Source of the DNA: Minisyncoccota bacterium
Lineage (GTDB): Bacteria; Patescibacteriota; Minisyncoccia; Phycocordibacterales; DATDWN01
Assembly: GCA_041674105.1 (NCBI GenBank)
Contig: JBAYWK010000001.1
Location: 1,136-65,135, forward strand
Direction: 5' to 3'
Length of the DNA: 64,000 nucleotides
Below are positions 50,347-64,000 of the stretch, one piece after another; position 1 is the stretch's first letter, and every line of letters begins with the position of its first letter. The position numbers and the translations under genes were made by a program. The notes below the pieces were generated by a model. The model ran no database searches. It was not told the DNA's origin and worked only from the letters and a program-made list of their open reading frames with translations.

Positions 50347-50435
50347 GGAGCCGTGTCAGAGTGGTCTAACGTGCCTCTTTGCTAAAGAGGTGTACTTTTA
50401 AAAGAGTACCGATGGTTCGAATCCATCCGGCTCCG
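50347..50435 (+). tRNA. tRNA-Ser (anticodon GCU), type II with a long variable arm
   Basis: Acceptor GGAGCCG/CGGCTCC, anticodon stem CCTCT/AGAGG with loop TTGCTAA, long variable stem-loop, T arm GATGG-TTCGAAT-CCATC, discriminator G. Confidence 0.8.
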
Positions 50436-50451
50436 CTACGGTAATAAATAA

Positions 50452-50541
50452 GGAGAGATGGGTGAGTGGCTGAAACCAGCGGTTTACTAAACCGCCGTGC
50501 CCTAACCGGCACCGAGGGTTCGAATCCCTCTCTCTCCGCCA
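50452..50541 (+). tRNA. Type II (Ser-like) tRNA with CCA encoded. The apparent anticodon is ACU (loop TTACTAA), which is unusual.
   Basis: Acceptor GGAGAGA/TCTCTCC plus G plus CCA; D stem GGT/ACC; anticodon stem GCGGT/ACCGC; variable stem GTGCC/GGCAC; T arm GAGGG-TTCGAAT-CCCTC. Confidence 0.65.
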
Positions 50542-59201: not shown

Positions 59202-60044
59202 ATGTCTAAAAACATTTTAAAAAAAATAGGTTTTATTCTACTCGTCATTTTTGCCATCATAGGTGCTAGTTTTATTTTTATTTATTTTGCTGTTTTGTGG
59301 GGTTTTACAGACACAAAAGGAATCATAGATAGACAAAGAGAAGTTTTTTTGGAAAGCGGAAAGGAAGGGTTGGCAAACACAATAGACTCACAAAATACCG
59401 ACAATTATTGGCAAAAAACTGAGGAGTGGCAAGTTATTAAAACAGCTCTACTAAAAGACAAAGATGTTTTATACAGAGCTGCTCTATCTTCCGGAGTATC
59501 ACCTAGACTTATCGCCTCTCAACTTATTGTAGAACAACTAAGAATGTTTAATTCTGACAGAGAATCTTACAAAAAATTTTTTGAACCACTTAAAATACTA
59601 GGTAGCCAAACGAAATTTTCTTGGGGAGTAATGGGTATGAAGGAAGATACCGCTATAACAGTAGAGCAAAACTTAAAAAATCCAGAGTCTCCTTTTTATC
59701 TTGGAATACAATTTGAAAATATACTGAATTTTCAAACAGAAAATATAAAAGAAGAAAGATTTACAAGAATGACAGACCAGAGGAATCATTATTTTAGCTA
59801 TCTTTATGCTGGGATTTACCTAAAACAAATAATGTCTCAATGGGAAAAAGCTGGTTTCCCTATATCAAATAGACCAGAAATACTTTCAACTCTTTACAAT
59901 ATAGGTTTTGTTAATTCAAAACCAAACCCTGATCCAAAATCTGGTGGAGCTTTAATAGAAATCGGCAACAGGACATATAGTTTTGGTTCCTTGGCTAAAG
60001 AATTTTATTATTCAGATGAGTTGCTGTTAGAGTTTCCTAGATAG
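59202..60044 (+). CDS. Hypothetical membrane-anchored protein
   Basis: 280 aa with an N-terminal TM helix. Confidence 0.4.
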   Translation: MSKNILKKIGFILLVIFAIIGASFIFIYFAVLWGFTDTKGIIDRQREVFLESGKEGLANTIDSQNTDNYWQKTEEWQVIKTALLKDKDVLYRAALSSGVSPRLIASQLIVEQLRMFNSDRESYKKFFEPLKILGSQTKFSWGVMGMKEDTAITVEQNLKNPESPFYLGIQFENILNFQTENIKEERFTRMTDQRNHYFSYLYAGIYLKQIMSQWEKAGFPISNRPEILSTLYNIGFVNSKPNPDPKSGGALIEIGNRTYSFGSLAKEFYYSDELLLEFPR

Positions 60045-60314
60045 ATAAAAAAGCAAGGTTACTCCCCCCTTTTTTTTTGATTCTTGTTCCATATTTTTAG
60101 TAAGCACCAAGGAATCTCTCCCTCGAAATTTTTTCATCACAATTCATATCCGGACTCGACCCTTACAGGGTCAGTACCCCAATTGGATATTTTATTCCTC
60201 ATTCGACAAGCTCAGGATCATAAAATATCTCAATCGGGCTTCGAGTCCTGACGAAAGGTGCCCCACACCTTTCTGTGCGTACAAAAAATTTACTCCCGGG
60301 GAATTTATTGTGTG

Positions 60315-60480
60315 TCTATACAACCACGCTCGAACGTATCCTAGTAAGAATATCTGACAATTCTCCCACACGTGCTCCGCGCATAATGATATGAACCTGA
60401 ATCGTACGCTCTCGCCCCGCCACCCACCTCCTGCCGAGCCGTCCTCGCTTCGAGGTGAAAAATAATTATCTGATTTTCTT
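60315..60480 (+). repeat. Left copy of an imperfect inverted repeat (shared upstream module). It begins with a 25-nt exact match, tctatacaaccacgctcgaacgtat, and contains an internal insertion of about 75 nt relative to the right copy.
   Basis: The reverse complement of 63911..64000 aligns to 60315-60366 plus 60450-60480. It contains the ATCTGA / GATAAT-type internal half-sites. Confidence 0.85.
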
Positions 60481-60481
60481 C

Positions 60482-60510
60482 TTGACAAGGATTAAGGTAT
60501 AGCTTATATT
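60482..60510 (+). promoter_or_regulatory. Sigma70-like promoter (-35 TTGACA, 17-nt spacer, -10 TATATT) immediately downstream of the left repeat copy, driving the precursor peptide gene
   Basis: cTTGACAaggattaaggtatagctTATATTtattt. A strong SD AAAGGAG lies 6 nt before the ATG at 60577. Confidence 0.55.
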
Positions 60511-60576
60511 TATTTACAAATGGATGTGGAGACGTTCTTCACATTGTACATTCACAACTCTAGAAAGGAGACTGCC

Positions 60577-60705
60577 ATGAAGAACCCTAAAAAGTTCTCT
60601 TGGAAAGTCATCTCCAAGGACAAGCCTCTTCCCGGCACGATCGTGTGTCAGGAACAGTGCAGCTCCGGTGGTGGTGGCAACGGCAAGTGCGGCACCGGCA
60701 AGTAA
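60577..60705 (+). CDS. Candidate RiPP precursor peptide (42 aa): MKNPKKFSWKVISKDKPLPGTIVCQEQCSSGGGGNGKCGTGK
   Basis: It is GC-rich, with a strong RBS (AAAGGAG, 6-nt spacer). The C-terminal 19 residues are rich in Cys/Ser/Thr/Gly. It is followed by a 13-bp terminator hairpin and lies near the SagB-YcaO gene. Confidence 0.5.
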   Translation: MKNPKKFSWKVISKDKPLPGTIVCQEQCSSGGGGNGKCGTGK

Positions 60706-60723
60706 CCCGGGTGTCCCACCCGC

Positions 60724-60763
60724 TCCCTCAAGTGGTGCAACAACTCTCGAGATTGTTGCACCA
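60724..60763 (+). terminator. Strong terminator hairpin AGTGGTGCAACAA-ctctcgagat-TTGTTGCACCACT plus TTTTT after the precursor gene
   Basis: 13-bp perfect stem followed by a T-run on the plus strand. It sits between the convergent gene ends. Confidence 0.7.
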
Positions 60764-60767
60764 CTTT

Positions 60768-61577
60768 TTACTTTATAATTTCGATAAATCTTTTAGGATT
60801 GGTTTTCATTAACTCATCCCAAGATAAATTTTTGTTCTTGTTTATAAATTCTTTAACTAACCAATATCCAACGGAGTACCCTGTCCATCTCTGATACTTG
60901 TCATTTCCAAACAAAAATTCTTTTATCACTTTCTGATCTCTGGACTCAAGAATATCTTTTGATCCCTTTAATACTTCAAACGCCTCATCTTTATTTAAAG
61001 CTCCAGCCCACTTGCTTACTTCAGGATGAAAATACTGCTCTCTAAAATTTTCTGCCAAACCTTCTATTAAGATTTCATCTAAAAGCGTGTAGTTACTAAA
61101 ATCATCGTAATGATGGTAATAATAGATTGTATGATTCAGTTCGTGAGCGACAGTATTTTCGATGGACTTTTTTGAGTATTCATCCAAATTTACAAACAAA
61201 TGAAAAACGCAACTGTAAACTGCTACAGCCATGACACCGTCAAAAACTTTGTCATCTTCGGTGGTAAGATATGGATGAACAAAAATAAAATTCTTAGTTG
61301 GAACAGGTAACTTTTCATTACACTTTTCAATAGTTTCTGAAATAGTTTTTTCTATTTCCAGCTTCTGCTCTTCAGAAATTCCTTTGTACTGTTCAATGTT
61401 TCCATTTCCAATGTGATCCAATAACCCCTGTTTTAACAAATCGATATTTGTATATCCACAATAATCAATGCTTCCTTTATCTTTTATCAAAGAAACAATT
61501 GAGCCCGCTATCTCATCTTTGTCCTTAAATTCTCCACTTGGAAAATAAAATTCAATTTGTGATAAATCTTTACTCAT
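60768..61577 (-). CDS. HExxH zinc-metallopeptidase-like protein (DUF2268-like), a candidate leader peptidase or immunity protein of the RiPP cluster
   Basis: 269 aa with the HELNH motif (TVAHELNHTIYYYHH). It is AT-rich, unlike its neighbours, and immediately downstream of the SagB-YcaO gene on the same strand. Confidence 0.45.
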   Translation of the reverse strand: MSKDLSQIEFYFPSGEFKDKDEIAGSIVSLIKDKGSIDYCGYTNIDLLKQGLLDHIGNGNIEQYKGISEEQKLEIEKTISETIEKCNEKLPVPTKNFIFVHPYLTTEDDKVFDGVMAVAVYSCVFHLFVNLDEYSKKSIENTVAHELNHTIYYYHHYDDFSNYTLLDEILIEGLAENFREQYFHPEVSKWAGALNKDEAFEVLKGSKDILESRDQKVIKEFLFGNDKYQRWTGYSVGYWLVKEFINKNKNLSWDELMKTNPKRFIEIIK

Positions 61578-61636
61578 AGCTTCATTTTAGCAAAATATAA
61601 AAGAGGCGGAAAGTTTTTAGCTTTCCGCCTCTGGGG

Positions 61637-63817
61637 TCATTCGAAAGGATGCGGGAACTTGGTTAGCTGACCATAAGCCAACTTACCTTGTCTAAACCTC
61701 TCGGCAACTTCGTACAAACGCTTCATTCCAGCGGGTTCTTGGCGATTACCAAAGGTCATCTGTACAGTGCCAGGAACGATCACTCTGACAATATTCAGAT
61801 CGCCATTTCCACCATAGTCATCCGAGAGCTCGAGAGGAACAACTAAATGTTTCCACCCCTTATTCTCAAAACAACCAAGGAGGTCGCCCCAAGTTTTAGA
61901 AGTGTTACCCCCTATCTCTTGAAACGATACAGACCTCTGGCTTTCAACCAAGAAATCCGCACGATGGAAATATTGTCTTTGGCCGTAAAGACGGCCATGA
62001 TCATTAGGCCAGATGACCTCGTCTGGACGAATCTTGTCGGGCACACCATGTTGCAGACGATGAAGAACAGAGGCCTCCACTTCCATGAGCGCATGGCTAA
62101 CAGCATGCTCGATATCGAAACTGGAGCAAGACGCACAAGTGCTGAAAGTACACTCTGCACTTTGAGCCATGACAAATACCACAGGTGCCAGATCAAGCGA
62201 ATGATCAACAATCCACACCTCAAACCCAACATCCCTTAGCTCATAGATACGCTTTTGGATATGATCCGGTAGGGTATCTTCTGAAACTATTGGCATATCG
62301 AGTCTGCAAAAGTATGAATTGATGAATGCATCCCTCTCAATCAGTTCAAGAGTCCCGGTCTCAATCGCCGTTTGCTTATCAGGGTGCGCAGCGCATCCCG
62401 ACGAGTTTGAAAAACAATAGTAAGGCGTTTCTGGAAAATACGGAAAATAGACATGGTCGGCAAGAATATGAAATTCATTACCATCCAAGTCGAATCCTTT
62501 TGTCCAGTTGTACCTCATATCATCATCAAACTGTGCAAACGGAAACCCTTTGATCCTGTACTGGCTCTTGTGGAATCGGATAACTTCTCGAGGATCGATA
62601 ACATTATCCAACTCACGATAGGTAGCACAGGCCAGCTCCGGGATACATCCGCAAGAAGTCCATTCCTTGGTTTCAGAAATTGCTTTTTTCAAAGCCATTT
62701 CAGGAGAAGGGTCTCTACCGTGCGACCAGCTTCGTTTTTCTGATAAACGAGCTGAGGCTATAGCAAAACCAGGAGCATACCCATTGGCTATTGGAATAGC
62801 CCAGTCAACTTGCAAGGCCGAAGGCTTTTCCAACTCAACTTGCTCACCCTCTTTACCAAAAGCAACGAGAGTAAGAGGCTGGTAGTCATCAGGAAGTTCA
62901 ATAGACTGAGCAACGAGCTCGTCTACAAAACCTCCAATTTCCAGAGTTGCAACACCTTGACGAGTGGCTTCCAAAAGAATGTTCTGGGCGGAATGCCCAG
63001 CTTCCAGAGGAACGTACAACATGCTTCGGTTGCCATATTTTTGGTTCGATACAGTGAAAGAACCACTAATGACAATGACTCCATGAGTTCCTTTCTGAAT
63101 GCCAGCAGGACTCAAGAAAGATCTAGCGAACTTCAATACGTCAGTTGAGACAGACCTGAAGCCAACAGAACTTTCTTGATCGTAAAGCACTCGATATACC
63201 CCAGGATCCAAATCGCCTGTTTTTGCAAACAAACCAACATGAATCATTAGAGGGTAAAGTGCTCCAGCGGATGGCACAGAGCGATGAGACCGACCGTCAG
63301 CCGTCAGGCATTCTCCATATGCACTCCAGAGCAGATCAATGACAGTTTGAAAATCAACGGTCTCTCCAGAAAAAGTACGAACAGATTTGCGGCGGCCGAT
63401 AATCTCAAAGAGATCACTTTTTGAAGGTTGATAAGCTCTCTCTAAGTTCTCTTCACGGTGCCTTTCAGTGGCCTGAGATACCAGACGTGCCACATCTTCA
63501 TCGCTGACATTTGTCGGAAACCTCATTGGGTTCGTGACAGTTTGCCAGAACTCATCTTCAAGTGTTTTTCCATCAACAATCACTTGTTTTTGGAACAACT
63601 CCTCGATAAGTCCTTCGATTGATGCTCGGTCCCAATCCTGGGACAAGATATCAATTACTTCGTTAAACCCCCTGCTTCCATTGCAAACCTCCAAGAGGTG
63701 TGCAGTAACAGCTCGAGGAATCTCAACCACAACTTCTTTACCGAGAGTTATGAAGGTTGTTTTGTTACTTGTAATGAGGGCTGAAGCCCACACAACAGGG
63801 ATACTTTGCGAGTCCAT
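61637..63817 (-). CDS. Fused SagB-type (nitroreductase-like, McbC-family) dehydrogenase / YcaO-domain cyclodehydratase, 726 aa
   Basis: The N-terminal half (about 100-300) carries RRKSVRTFSGE...VPSAGALYPLMIHV...GVYRV, the SagB-type dehydrogenase signature. The C-terminal half carries the YcaO motifs ALKKAISETKEW (EAxERY-like) and TGTLELIERDAF (ExxER), plus a C-terminal Pro-containing tail. GC is about 50% against a window background near 33%. Confidence 0.75.
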   Translation of the reverse strand: MDSQSIPVVWASALITSNKTTFITLGKEVVVEIPRAVTAHLLEVCNGSRGFNEVIDILSQDWDRASIEGLIEELFQKQVIVDGKTLEDEFWQTVTNPMRFPTNVSDEDVARLVSQATERHREENLERAYQPSKSDLFEIIGRRKSVRTFSGETVDFQTVIDLLWSAYGECLTADGRSHRSVPSAGALYPLMIHVGLFAKTGDLDPGVYRVLYDQESSVGFRSVSTDVLKFARSFLSPAGIQKGTHGVIVISGSFTVSNQKYGNRSMLYVPLEAGHSAQNILLEATRQGVATLEIGGFVDELVAQSIELPDDYQPLTLVAFGKEGEQVELEKPSALQVDWAIPIANGYAPGFAIASARLSEKRSWSHGRDPSPEMALKKAISETKEWTSCGCIPELACATYRELDNVIDPREVIRFHKSQYRIKGFPFAQFDDDMRYNWTKGFDLDGNEFHILADHVYFPYFPETPYYCFSNSSGCAAHPDKQTAIETGTLELIERDAFINSYFCRLDMPIVSEDTLPDHIQKRIYELRDVGFEVWIVDHSLDLAPVVFVMAQSAECTFSTCASCSSFDIEHAVSHALMEVEASVLHRLQHGVPDKIRPDEVIWPNDHGRLYGQRQYFHRADFLVESQRSVSFQEIGGNTSKTWGDLLGCFENKGWKHLVVPLELSDDYGGNGDLNIVRVIVPGTVQMTFGNRQEPAGMKRLYEVAERFRQGKLAYGQLTKFPHPFE

Positions 63818-63862
63818 AGCCCCCTCCTTTCACTTGATTTTGTTAAAAAACTACCTGACGCG

Positions 63863-63890
63863 ACATTACAATATATCTATTCTTGAGTCA
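63863..63890 (-). promoter_or_regulatory. Sigma70-like promoter for the SagB-YcaO operon (-35 TTGACT, 16-nt spacer, -10 TAATGT), immediately downstream of the right repeat copy
   Basis: The minus strand reads acTTGACTcaagatagatatattgTAATGTcg. The RBS AAAGGAGGGG lies before the ATG at 63817. Confidence 0.45.
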
Positions 63891-63910
63891 AGTAAAACGG
63901 TAAAACGTAC

Positions 63911-64000
63911 GGAAGCAAATCAGATAATCATTTTCCTCACCGGAGCAAGGAAATTATCAGACATTCTTGGTAAAATACGTTCGAGCGTGGTTGTATAGAT
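63911..64000 (-). repeat. Right copy of the inverted repeat (shared upstream module), truncated by the window edge
   Basis: Reverse complement atctatacaaccacgctcgaacgtattttaccaagaatgtctgataatttccttgctccggtgaggaaaatgattatctgatttgcttcc, which aligns to the left copy. Confidence 0.85.

What the first reader, a model, noticed from the sequence alone, without database searches (positions are those of the whole stretch)
60315..64000. Compact GC-rich RiPP-like island: Cys/Ser/Thr-rich precursor peptide, fused SagB-YcaO enzyme and HExxH protease-like protein
There is a 42-aa ORF with a strong RBS whose C-terminus is CQEQCSSGGGGNGKCGTGK. This is the residue mix that YcaO cyclodehydratases convert to azolines/azoles. 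It sits convergent to a 726-aa protein that fuses a SagB-type FMN dehydrogenase signature (RRKSVRTF...PSAGALYP) to a YcaO domain (ELIERD ATP-binding motif). Those two activities are the core of thiazole/oxazole-modified microcin (LAP/TOMM) biosynthesis. No separate E1-like/Ocin-ThiF partner ('C protein') or transporter is seen in the window; the island is cut at 64000. A single-polypeptide B-D fusion with no C protein is not the textbook architecture, so substrate recognition may be built in (the first ~90 aa of the fusion could be an RRE-like element). The precursor and the fusion gene are about 50-60% GC in a window that is mostly near 33% GC, pointing to horizontal acquisition. The intervening HExxH protein is AT-rich and host-like. 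A natural-product cluster of this type in a reduced, likely symbiotic genome would be unusual.
Basis: partly seen in the sequence, partly recalled or inferred. Interest (0 to 1): 0.85.

Follow-up and report, generated by a model that had tools for sequence, protein, structure and literature searches.

The report
Three-gene thiazole-peptide cassette in a CPR bacterium
This is a complete, self-contained three-gene kit (a small Cys-rich peptide, one enzyme that combines peptide-binding, ring-forming and ring-oxidising domains, and a zinc protease). It most likely makes a short thiazole-containing peptide, and it belongs to a widespread but uncharacterised family in ultra-small (CPR) bacteria, so it is a new variant of a known system and not a one-off.

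Summary
Window 60305-64000 carries three genes:
- a 42-aa peptide gene (60577-60705, +);
- a DUF2268 HExxH protein (60768-61577, -);
- a 726-aa protein (61637-63817, -) with Pfam Nitroreductase and YcaO domains.

The cassette is not cut at 64000. It ends there, at the outer edge of a 58+40-nt inverted repeat.

At least 120 homologue clusters share this architecture, mostly in Patescibacteria. The peptide is conserved and under purifying selection (leader PKKFSWK; core QxQC...GxGxCG). DUF2268 accompanies the enzyme in nearly all CPR loci.

An 88%-identical copy of the cassette sits in an unrelated genomic context, so the cassette is mobile. Its uneven GC content is a property of the cassette itself.

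LAP clusters in CPR genomes were already reported from genome mining. This is therefore a new architectural variant (RRE-dehydrogenase-YcaO in one chain) of a known kind. The chemistry is predicted, and the biological role is unknown.

The parts
60305..60362 (.). Left arm, outer part, of the flanking inverted repeat (58 nt, 84% complementary to L001 9809-9866 = window 63952-64009)
   Evidence: The 25-mer TCTATACAACCACGCTCGAACGTAT occurs only twice in the window (0 expected).
60363..60441 (.). 79-nt GC-rich segment found only in the peptide-side copy of the repeat. The relative L003 has it on both sides, so the fusion-side copy here carries a deletion.
   Evidence: alignment A2
60442..60481 (.). 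Left arm, inner part, of the inverted repeat (40 nt, 80%). It abuts the -35 box of the peptide promoter and is conserved in L003 on both sides.
60482..60510 (+). Sigma-70-like promoter of the peptide gene: TTGACA-17 nt-TATATT (11 of 12)
   Evidence: L001 13336-13308 mapped to the window
60577..60705 (+). Precursor peptide gene, 42 aa. Leader motif PKKFSWKV; core CQEQCSSGGGGNGKCGTGK; RBS AAGGAG at 60565-60570.
   Evidence: Conserved in at least 25 loci or proteins. Many codons differ synonymously while keeping the amino acid.
60730..60766 (.). Perfect 14-bp hairpin between the convergent peptide and DUF2268 genes; a likely bidirectional terminator
   Evidence: I9
60768..61577 (-). DUF2268 zinc-metalloprotease-like protein, 269 aa. 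HELNH and the downstream EGLAE are invariant. Proposed leader peptidase.
61602..61632 (-). 12-bp GC-rich hairpin plus T-run between the fusion stop codon and the DUF2268 start codon; terminator- or attenuator-like
   Evidence: L001 12186-12216
61637..63817 (-). 726-aa three-domain enzyme (RRE, SagB-type dehydrogenase, YcaO)
63533..63817 (-). aa 1-95: RiPP recognition element (four beta-strands, then three helices)
62852..63397 (-). aa 141-322: FMN-dependent SagB-type azoline dehydrogenase domain. R143/S145/R147 and K260/Y261 are invariant.
   Evidence: K260-Y261 aligns with McbC K201-Y202.
61766..62719 (-). aa 367-684: YcaO ATP-dependent cyclodehydratase domain. E382, E385, E491, E494, R495, D496, E579 and E581 are invariant. 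The protein ends in FPHPFE.
63912..64000 (.). Right arm of the inverted repeat, upstream of the fusion gene. Its outer end coincides with the end of the window and with the point where homology to a cassette-less relative (L170) stops.

Best explanation
This is a complete, mobile, three-gene biosynthetic cassette for a linear azole-containing peptide.

Proposed mechanism:
1. The 42-aa precursor is transcribed from its own strong promoter.
2. Its leader, with the invariant Phe7 and near-invariant Trp9 in PKKFSWKV, is bound by the N-terminal RRE of the 726-aa enzyme.
3. The C-terminal YcaO domain uses ATP to cyclodehydrate the conserved core cysteines (Cys28 and Cys38, probably also Cys24 and perhaps Ser29/30) to thiazolines (or oxazolines).
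4. The central FMN-dependent SagB-type domain, probably working as a dimer, oxidises these to thiazoles (oxazoles).
5. The DUF2268 Zn-protease then removes the leader. This releases a Gly-rich, Lys-terminated peptide of about 19 residues carrying 2-3 azoles.

The fused RRE takes over the leader-binding job that a separate E1-like or Ocin-ThiF protein does in textbook systems.

What is shown: domain identities, the RRE fold, conservation of the catalytic residues, co-conservation of the three genes, purifying selection on the peptide, and mobility of the cassette.

What is inferred: every chemical step, the cleavage site, which residues are modified, and the biological role, which is unknown (antibiotic, signal or metal ligand).
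For: - Domains: Pfam YcaO 4.3e-41 and Nitroreductase 5.6e-14. The NCBIfam SagD and SagB models are the best-scoring families.
- Structure: the AF2 model has pLDDT 89 and pTM 0.81. The top Foldseek hits are LynD, TruD, MusD, McbD, McbC, BmdC and ThcOx.
- Catalytic residues: 65 homologues keep R143/S145/R147, K260/Y261, E382/E385, E491/E494/R495/D496 and E579/E581 invariant, and the C-terminal FPHPF in at least 90%. K260-Y261 aligns with the catalytic K201-Y202 of McbC (their role is described in PMC6395948).
- Peptide: homologues sit next to the enzyme in CPR loci, and directly downstream of it in proteobacterial relatives. F7, Q27, C28 and C38 are invariant. Pairs of peptide genes show 7-19 codons that differ synonymously.
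- Protease: DUF2268 is adjacent to the fusion gene in nearly all CPR loci, down to 23% fusion identity, and HExxH...E is invariant.
- Expression signals: promoter, RBS and terminators are in place.
- Completeness: the cassette has only three genes, and the flanks are housekeeping genes.
Against: - There is no experimental or expression data.
- Scores fall below the curated cut-offs of TIGR03604 (139 against 219) and TIGR03605 (65 against 78), so this is not a member of the curated SagD/SagB equivalog groups.
- There is no E1-like domain, which in many systems is needed to activate the YcaO.
- RREs fused to SagB-type dehydrogenases have been suggested to be vestigial in other pathways (PMC7470986).
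- There is no exporter or immunity gene.
- The core is unusually conserved for an antibiotic-type RiPP.
- One relative (L087) has a Ser-only core without Cys.
Confidence: 0.75

Rival explanations
1. Same cassette, different YcaO chemistry. The YcaO domain makes a backbone thioamide or amidine, or acts as an ATP-dependent peptidase like MusD, and the nitroreductase-fold domain does something other than azoline oxidation.
For: Archaeal thioamide-forming YcaOs and the peptidase-active MusD are among the close sequence and structure matches. No E1-like partner is present, as in non-canonical YcaO systems.
Against: - No TfuA or sulfur-donor gene lies nearby.
- The fused domain keeps the Lys-Tyr pair specific to azoline dehydrogenases.
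- The protein ends in the Pro-rich FPHPF, as azoline-forming YcaOs do (this last comparison is from my own knowledge).
- The core has invariant Cys residues preceded by small or polar residues.
Confidence: 0.08
2. The small ORF is not the substrate. The enzyme modifies a cellular protein, as E. coli YcaO and McrA-YcaO do, and the ORF is a regulatory leader or a chance ORF.
For: Some sources annotate homologues as 'ribosomal protein S12 methylthiotransferase accessory factor'. No export genes are present.
Against: - The ORF is conserved next to the enzyme from CPR to Proteobacteria despite gene rearrangement.
- It has a shared leader motif and invariant Cys residues, and shows synonymous-dominated divergence.
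- It has its own strong promoter and RBS.
- An RRE domain implies a leader-peptide substrate.
Confidence: 0.04
3. The flanking inverted repeats are only duplicated promoter/operator modules that co-regulate the two convergent transcription units. They are not ends of a mobile element. Under this rival, the cassette moves by ordinary recombination.
For: Each repeat copy ends exactly at the -35 region of its gene and has the same orientation relative to that gene. L003 keeps the inner module on both sides. The cassette contains no transposase or integrase, and no target-site duplication is visible.
Against: Homology to the cassette-less relative L170 stops at the outer end of the repeat. The 88%-identical cassette in L163 has unrelated 160-nt direct repeats instead, so flanking repeats of some kind accompany the cassette in two unrelated insertion contexts.
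Confidence: 0.5

Closest known systems
Microcin B17 synthetase McbBCD (E. coli)
   Same: It combines a YcaO cyclodehydratase with an FMN dehydrogenase that uses a catalytic Lys-Tyr pair and with an RRE-type leader-binding module. These act on a Gly/Ser/Cys-rich core, and a separate protease removes the leader.
   Different: McbBCD is three separate proteins in an octamer, with an E1-like, Zn-binding McbB scaffold. Here there is one polypeptide and no E1-like domain. McbEFG export and immunity genes are absent. The protease is DUF2268 and not TldD/E. Sequence identity is only 12-23%.
Cyanobactin heterocyclases LynD/TruD/PatD and the oxidase ThcOx; NRPS oxidase BmdC
   Same: LynD and TruD carry an N-terminal RRE and a C-terminal YcaO in one chain. 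ThcOx and BmdC carry an RRE-like domain in front of a SagB-type nitroreductase domain. Residues 64-323 of the window protein align with BmdC 63-324.
   Different: In LynD an E1-like domain lies between the RRE and the YcaO. Here the dehydrogenase occupies that position. The window enzyme looks like a ThcOx/BmdC-type oxidase fused to a stand-alone YcaO. I found no description of this three-domain order in the searchable literature.
LAP clusters of CPR bacteria reported by genome mining (Sharrar et al. 2020, PMC7298704)
   Same: [quoted passage not shown]
   Different: The example shown there has separate YcaO and nitroreductase genes and an 84-aa precursor. That paper does not describe the fused enzyme, the DUF2268 partner or the FSW-leader/QEQC-core precursor family.
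Partner-independent YcaOs (bottromycin, trifolitoxin pathways)
   Same: No E1-like or Ocin-ThiF partner (PMC4603692).
   Different: Those YcaOs are not fused to an RRE or a dehydrogenase, and their precursors are unrelated.
Proteobacterial relatives of the same fusion enzyme with an ATP-grasp partner
   Same: Same RRE-SagB-YcaO architecture (25-35% identity) and an FSW-leader peptide directly downstream.
   Different: A YheC/D-like ATP-grasp takes the place of DUF2268 and the cores differ. These loci may be the SagB-associated 'branch 6' ATP-grasp loci noted by Makarova et al. 2022 (PMC8939145). I did not verify that link.

Membership tests
LAP/TOMM (thiazole/oxazole-modified peptide) biosynthetic system | YcaO-domain cyclodehydratase with conserved ATP/Mg-binding acidic residues | tested here: met
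   Pfam PF02624 141.7 bits against cut-off 25.7. E382, E385, E491, E494, R495, D496, E579 and E581 are invariant in 65 sequences. Fold matches LynD, TruD and McbD.
LAP/TOMM (thiazole/oxazole-modified peptide) biosynthetic system | Membership of the curated SagD subfamily (TIGR03604) and the SagB domain family (TIGR03605) at NCBI's trusted cut-offs | tested here: not met
   139.2 bits against 219.25, and 65.3 bits against 78.4. This is a divergent lineage outside the curated models.
LAP/TOMM (thiazole/oxazole-modified peptide) biosynthetic system | E1-like (C) or Ocin-ThiF-like (F) partner protein or domain | tested here: not met
   No such domain in the 726-aa protein. No such gene within 10 kb on either side. 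None in related loci.
LAP/TOMM (thiazole/oxazole-modified peptide) biosynthetic system | RiPP recognition element that can bind the leader | tested here: met
LAP/TOMM (thiazole/oxazole-modified peptide) biosynthetic system | FMN-dependent azoline dehydrogenase with the catalytic Lys-Tyr motif | tested here: met
   Pfam PF00881 53.1 bits against 23.5. K260-Y261 is invariant and aligns with McbC K201-Y202.
LAP/TOMM (thiazole/oxazole-modified peptide) biosynthetic system | Adjacent precursor peptide with a conserved leader and a Cys/Ser/Thr-bearing core | tested here: met
   42-aa ORF. The family alignment shows F7, Q27, C28 and C38 invariant. Adjacency to the enzyme is conserved.
LAP/TOMM (thiazole/oxazole-modified peptide) biosynthetic system | Azol(in)e heterocycles in the mature product | not testable with these tools
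   Needs mass spectrometry or NMR of the product.
DUF2268 (PF10026) predicted Zn-dependent protease | Pfam gathering score and the HExxH...E zinc-binding motif | tested here: met
   107.7 bits against 23.6. HE..H and EG.A are invariant in 11 cassette-linked homologues. Leader-peptidase activity itself is not testable.
Transposon-like mobile insertion cassette | Terminal inverted repeats bounding the unit | tested here: met
   58+40-nt inverted repeat at both ends. The outer end coincides with the loss of homology to L170.
Transposon-like mobile insertion cassette | Transposase or recombinase, and a target-site duplication | tested here: not met
   The cassette holds only the three genes. The sequences just outside the repeats share no direct repeat. 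The L163 copy has 160-nt direct repeats instead.

The most novel reading that the evidence does not exclude
The product may not be a hypervariable antibiotic. It may be a conserved-function small molecule, for example a thiazole/thiol metal ligand or another cofactor- or signal-like peptide used by CPR bacteria. It would be made by the smallest known self-sufficient azole synthetase and spread as a repeat-bounded cassette with no recombinase of its own.

Hints:
- The core (QxQC-S-S/C-G-G-G-G-N-G-K-C-G) is as conserved as the leader across enzymes that are only about 45% identical.
- There is no exporter or immunity gene.
- The 90%-identical copy sits directly beside a copper-homeostasis block: a CsoR-type repressor, DUF305, DUF411 and a P-type ATPase.
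Probability: 0.15. Interest if true: 0.75.

Novelty: new variant of a known kind. Interest (0 to 1): 0.45.

Why it matters
If the prediction holds, this would be a minimal azole-forming RiPP system: one enzyme, one peptide and one protease in 3.7 kb. Substrate recognition, cyclodehydration and oxidation would all sit in a single polypeptide without the E1-like activator.

That would make it an attractive, easily portable tool for installing thiazoles in peptides. It would also test whether a YcaO needs an E1-like partner at all.

The cassette is common and mobile in CPR/Patescibacteria, which have very small genomes and few secondary-metabolite genes. Its product is therefore likely to matter for how these episymbionts interact with hosts or competitors, or how they handle metals.

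Tried and rejected
- Rfam at the gathering threshold (window) and at the E-value threshold (L001 9100-14000, L163 5500-9800) found nothing in the flanking repeats or the long upstream regions. Only the neighbouring tRNA-Ile and sub-threshold noise turned up.
- The NCBIfam and Pfam scans of the peptide gave no match.
- phmmer of the peptide against 1.84 billion representatives gave 13 true small homologues and one spurious 966-aa repeat protein, P0241, which I discarded.
- A scan of viral contigs for the enzyme found none, so there is no evidence for phage carriage.
- tRNA adjacency as an integration signature: tRNA-Ile and tRNA-Leu lie next to the cassette only in L001 and L003, and in none of 13 other loci scanned. 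I did not adopt this idea.
- GC content as proof of foreignness was rejected as stated. The fusion gene is GC-richer than its flanks in most of the loci compared, and DUF2268 is always AT-richer. The same 46%/31% split is present in the L163 copy. Only the raised GC3 (0.41 and 0.72 against about 0.24 for the host) hints at recent arrival.
- The ~255-aa neighbour seen in L004, L006 and L007 is unrelated to DUF2268 and absent from the window.
- Literature searches for a dehydrogenase-YcaO fusion or a DUF2268-YcaO link found nothing specific. The Burkhart 2017 review was not available.
- L169, a relative with 92%-identical RecG, ends 100 nt past the 280-aa gene, so it could not serve as an empty-site control.

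Full report
**1. What is in the sequence**

The region holds three ORFs.

- A 42-aa ORF at 60577-60705 (+): MKNPKKFSWKVISKDKPLPGTIVCQEQCSSGGGGNGKCGTGK. It is preceded by AAGGAG (60565-60570) and by a near-consensus promoter, TTGACA-17-TATATT, at 60482-60510. The longer 61-aa reading would start at about the transcription start site, so the 42-aa form is the credible one.
- A 269-aa protein at 60768-61577 (-), on the opposite strand. It matches Pfam DUF2268, 'predicted Zn-dependent protease' (7e-31).
- A 726-aa protein at 61637-63817 (-), with Pfam Nitroreductase (aa 141-322, 5.6e-14) and YcaO (aa 367-684, 4.3e-41).

The NCBIfam SagD and SagB models are the best-scoring families for the 726-aa protein, but both score below their curated cut-offs.

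A perfect 14-bp hairpin (60730-60766) separates the convergent genes. A 12-bp GC-rich hairpin with a T-run lies between the fusion gene and DUF2268.

GC content is 45.9% for the fusion gene, 54% for the peptide gene and 31.7% for DUF2268, against 34.3% for the rest of the window.

**2. The cassette is complete, not truncated**

The same sequence exists on a 48.6-kb contig (L001). Beyond window position 64000 come 180 nt, tRNA-Ile(UAU), an 87-aa membrane protein, a 70-aa ORF, FtsH, SmpB, IF3, L35 and L20. There are no further biosynthetic, transport or immunity genes there. On the other side lie a 280-aa membrane-anchored protein of unknown function, RecG and SHMT.

The host RecG is identical to an NCBI protein from a 'Candidatus Paceibacterota bacterium' MAG, and its best relatives are Patescibacteria.

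**3. The enzyme**

An AlphaFold2 model built from 65 homologues is confident (pLDDT 89, pTM 0.81). Foldseek ranks the cyanobactin heterocyclases LynD and TruD, MusD, archaeal YcaOs, McbD, and the oxidases BmdC, McbC and ThcOx at the top.

Across 65 sequences that go down to 47% identity, the following stay invariant:
- the FMN-phosphate motif R143-x-S145-x-R147;
- K260-Y261;
- the YcaO residues E382, E385, E491, E494, R495, D496, E579 and E581.

The C-terminal F721-P-H-P-F725 motif is kept in at least 90% of them.

K260-Y261 aligns exactly with McbC K201-Y202. That is the pair that abstracts the alpha-proton during azoline oxidation (PMC6395948).

There is no room for, and no match to, an E1-like domain. 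The order RRE - dehydrogenase - YcaO resembles a ThcOx/BmdC-type oxidase (profile positions 64-323 align with BmdC 63-324) fused to a stand-alone YcaO.

**4. The peptide is real and belongs to the enzyme**

Homologous small ORFs lie next to the enzyme in every sufficiently long CPR locus examined. They are usually convergent, just after DUF2268 (L003-L008, L011, L012, L085, L163). In proteobacterial and some other relatives they lie directly downstream on the same strand (L010, L014, L018, L087, L089, L090).

A search of 1.84 billion representative proteins found 13 more.

In the alignment of 21 CPR peptides, F7, Q27, C28 and C38 are invariant. W9, Q25, G33, G34 and G39 are nearly so. The consensus is xKxPKKFSWKVT...GTIxxQEQCSSGGGGNGxCG. 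Cys24 of the window peptide is not conserved.

Pairs of peptide genes differ at 7-19 codons synonymously while keeping the amino acid. That is the signature of a translated gene under purifying selection.

For a RiPP, the core is unusually conserved.

**5. DUF2268 is part of the system**

DUF2268 is adjacent to the fusion gene in nearly all CPR loci, down to 23% fusion identity. HExxH and a downstream EGxA motif are invariant. The proteobacterial relatives lack it and carry a YheC/D-like ATP-grasp instead.

I found no paper linking DUF2268 to YcaO.

**6. Mobility and flanks**

A cassette that is 87.7% identical at nucleotide level over 3,284 nt (enzyme 90% and DUF2268 86% amino-acid identity) sits in a completely different context. 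It lies between a copper-homeostasis block (CsoR-type repressor, DUF305, DUF411, P-type ATPase) and a Bsp6I-type restriction-modification system (L163-L168).

A relative of the host with 81%-identical RecG (L170) keeps the backbone order SHMT-RecG...tRNA-Ile-87aa-FtsH-SmpB. It has a Mur ligase gene where the window has the 280-aa gene plus the cassette. Its homology to L001 stops at L001 9817, which corresponds to window 64000 and is the outer end of the inverted repeat.

In the window the cassette is bounded by a 58-nt plus 40-nt inverted repeat. On the peptide side the two parts are interrupted by 79 nt, which L003 has on both sides. Each copy ends at the -35 box of its gene.

The L163 copy is instead flanked by unrelated direct repeats of about 160 nt.

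No transposase, integrase or target-site duplication was found, and no viral contig carries the enzyme.

The GC split within the cassette (46% / 31% / 54%) is the same in L163. It is a property of the cassette and not a sign that DUF2268 is 'host'. The raised GC3 (0.41 for the fusion gene and 0.72 for the peptide gene, against about 0.24 for host genes) is compatible with recent arrival.

I cannot decide whether the repeats are co-regulatory modules, mobility ends, or both.

**7. Mechanism proposed**

- The RRE binds the FSW leader.
- The YcaO domain cyclodehydrates the conserved cysteines, using ATP.
- The FMN domain oxidises thiazolines to thiazoles.
- DUF2268 removes the leader.

The product would be a Gly-rich, Lys-terminated peptide of about 19 residues with 2-3 azoles. 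All chemical steps are inferred from homology.

Rivals:
- other YcaO chemistry (thioamide, amidine, peptidase), about 0.08;
- a protein substrate instead of the peptide, about 0.04.

The biological role is open. The conserved core, the lack of export and immunity genes, and the copper-gene neighbourhood of one copy leave room for a metal-binding or cofactor-like function (probability about 0.15).

**8. Comparison with what is known, and novelty**

The system works like a LAP/TOMM synthetase such as McbBCD. It fails two membership tests for the textbook family: it has no E1-like or Ocin-ThiF partner, and it scores below the cut-offs of TIGR03604 and TIGR03605.

LAP clusters with YcaO, nitroreductase and peptidase genes in CPR genomes were already reported from genome mining: 110 clusters in 93 genomes (PMC7298704). 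A RiPP cluster in a reduced genome is therefore not in itself surprising.

At least 120 homologue clusters have the same architecture as the window enzyme. The family is widespread but, as far as I could find, undescribed as a three-domain single-chain azole synthetase with a DUF2268 partner and an FSW/QEQC precursor.

Verdict: new variant of a known kind, with moderate interest.

**9. Correction for follow-up work**

Cyclodehydration gives -18 Da and the subsequent oxidation gives -2 Da, so the total is -20 Da per azole.

Noticed in passing
window 50452-50541 (+), next to tRNA-Ser(GCT) at 50347-50436: A second tRNA-Ser with anticodon ACT (A at position 34). The anticodon loop reads TTACTAA. 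A34 tRNAs other than tRNA-Arg(ACG) are unusual in bacteria.
   Followed up: partly
window 60152-60249 (- strand); L170 2736-2820: A ~100-nt non-coding element between the 280-aa gene and the cassette is 77.5% identical to a sequence in the relative L170. There it lies just after tRNA-Ser(GCT) and ends with a copy of that tRNA's 3' end. It looks like an integration scar or att remnant. It has no Rfam match.
   Followed up: partly
L163 5659-5819 and 9354-9515: The 88%-identical cassette in another genome is flanked by ~160-nt direct repeats (89-94% identical) that are unrelated to the window's inverted repeats. It lies between copper-homeostasis genes and a Bsp6I-type restriction-modification system.
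   Followed up: partly
L004 4861-5670 (-), L006 7283-8050 (-), L007 9585-10355 (-): A ~255-aa protein with no Pfam family, 36-40% identical between loci, sits beside the cassette in three CPR loci but not in the window. It could be an accessory or immunity protein.
   Followed up: partly
L010, L014, L016, L017, L018 (Proteobacteria): Distant relatives of the fusion enzyme (25-35% identity) keep an FSW-leader peptide directly downstream but pair with a YheC/D-like ATP-grasp instead of DUF2268. L017 (Cupriavidus) has two paralogous fusion genes flanking the ATP-grasp.
   Followed up: partly
window 59202-60044 (+): A 280-aa protein with an N-terminal transmembrane helix and no Pfam or NCBIfam match lies between RecG and the cassette. 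It is present in the 92% relative L169 but replaced by a Mur ligase in L170, so this intergenic neighbourhood is a variable spot.
   Followed up: partly
L003 (JAGYLS010000112.1): A 4-kb contig carrying a 79%-identical cassette is binned to an Atribacterota MAG ('Ca. Oleincola secundus'). This is most likely a mis-binned CPR contig. If it is not, it shows cross-phylum transfer.
   Followed up: no
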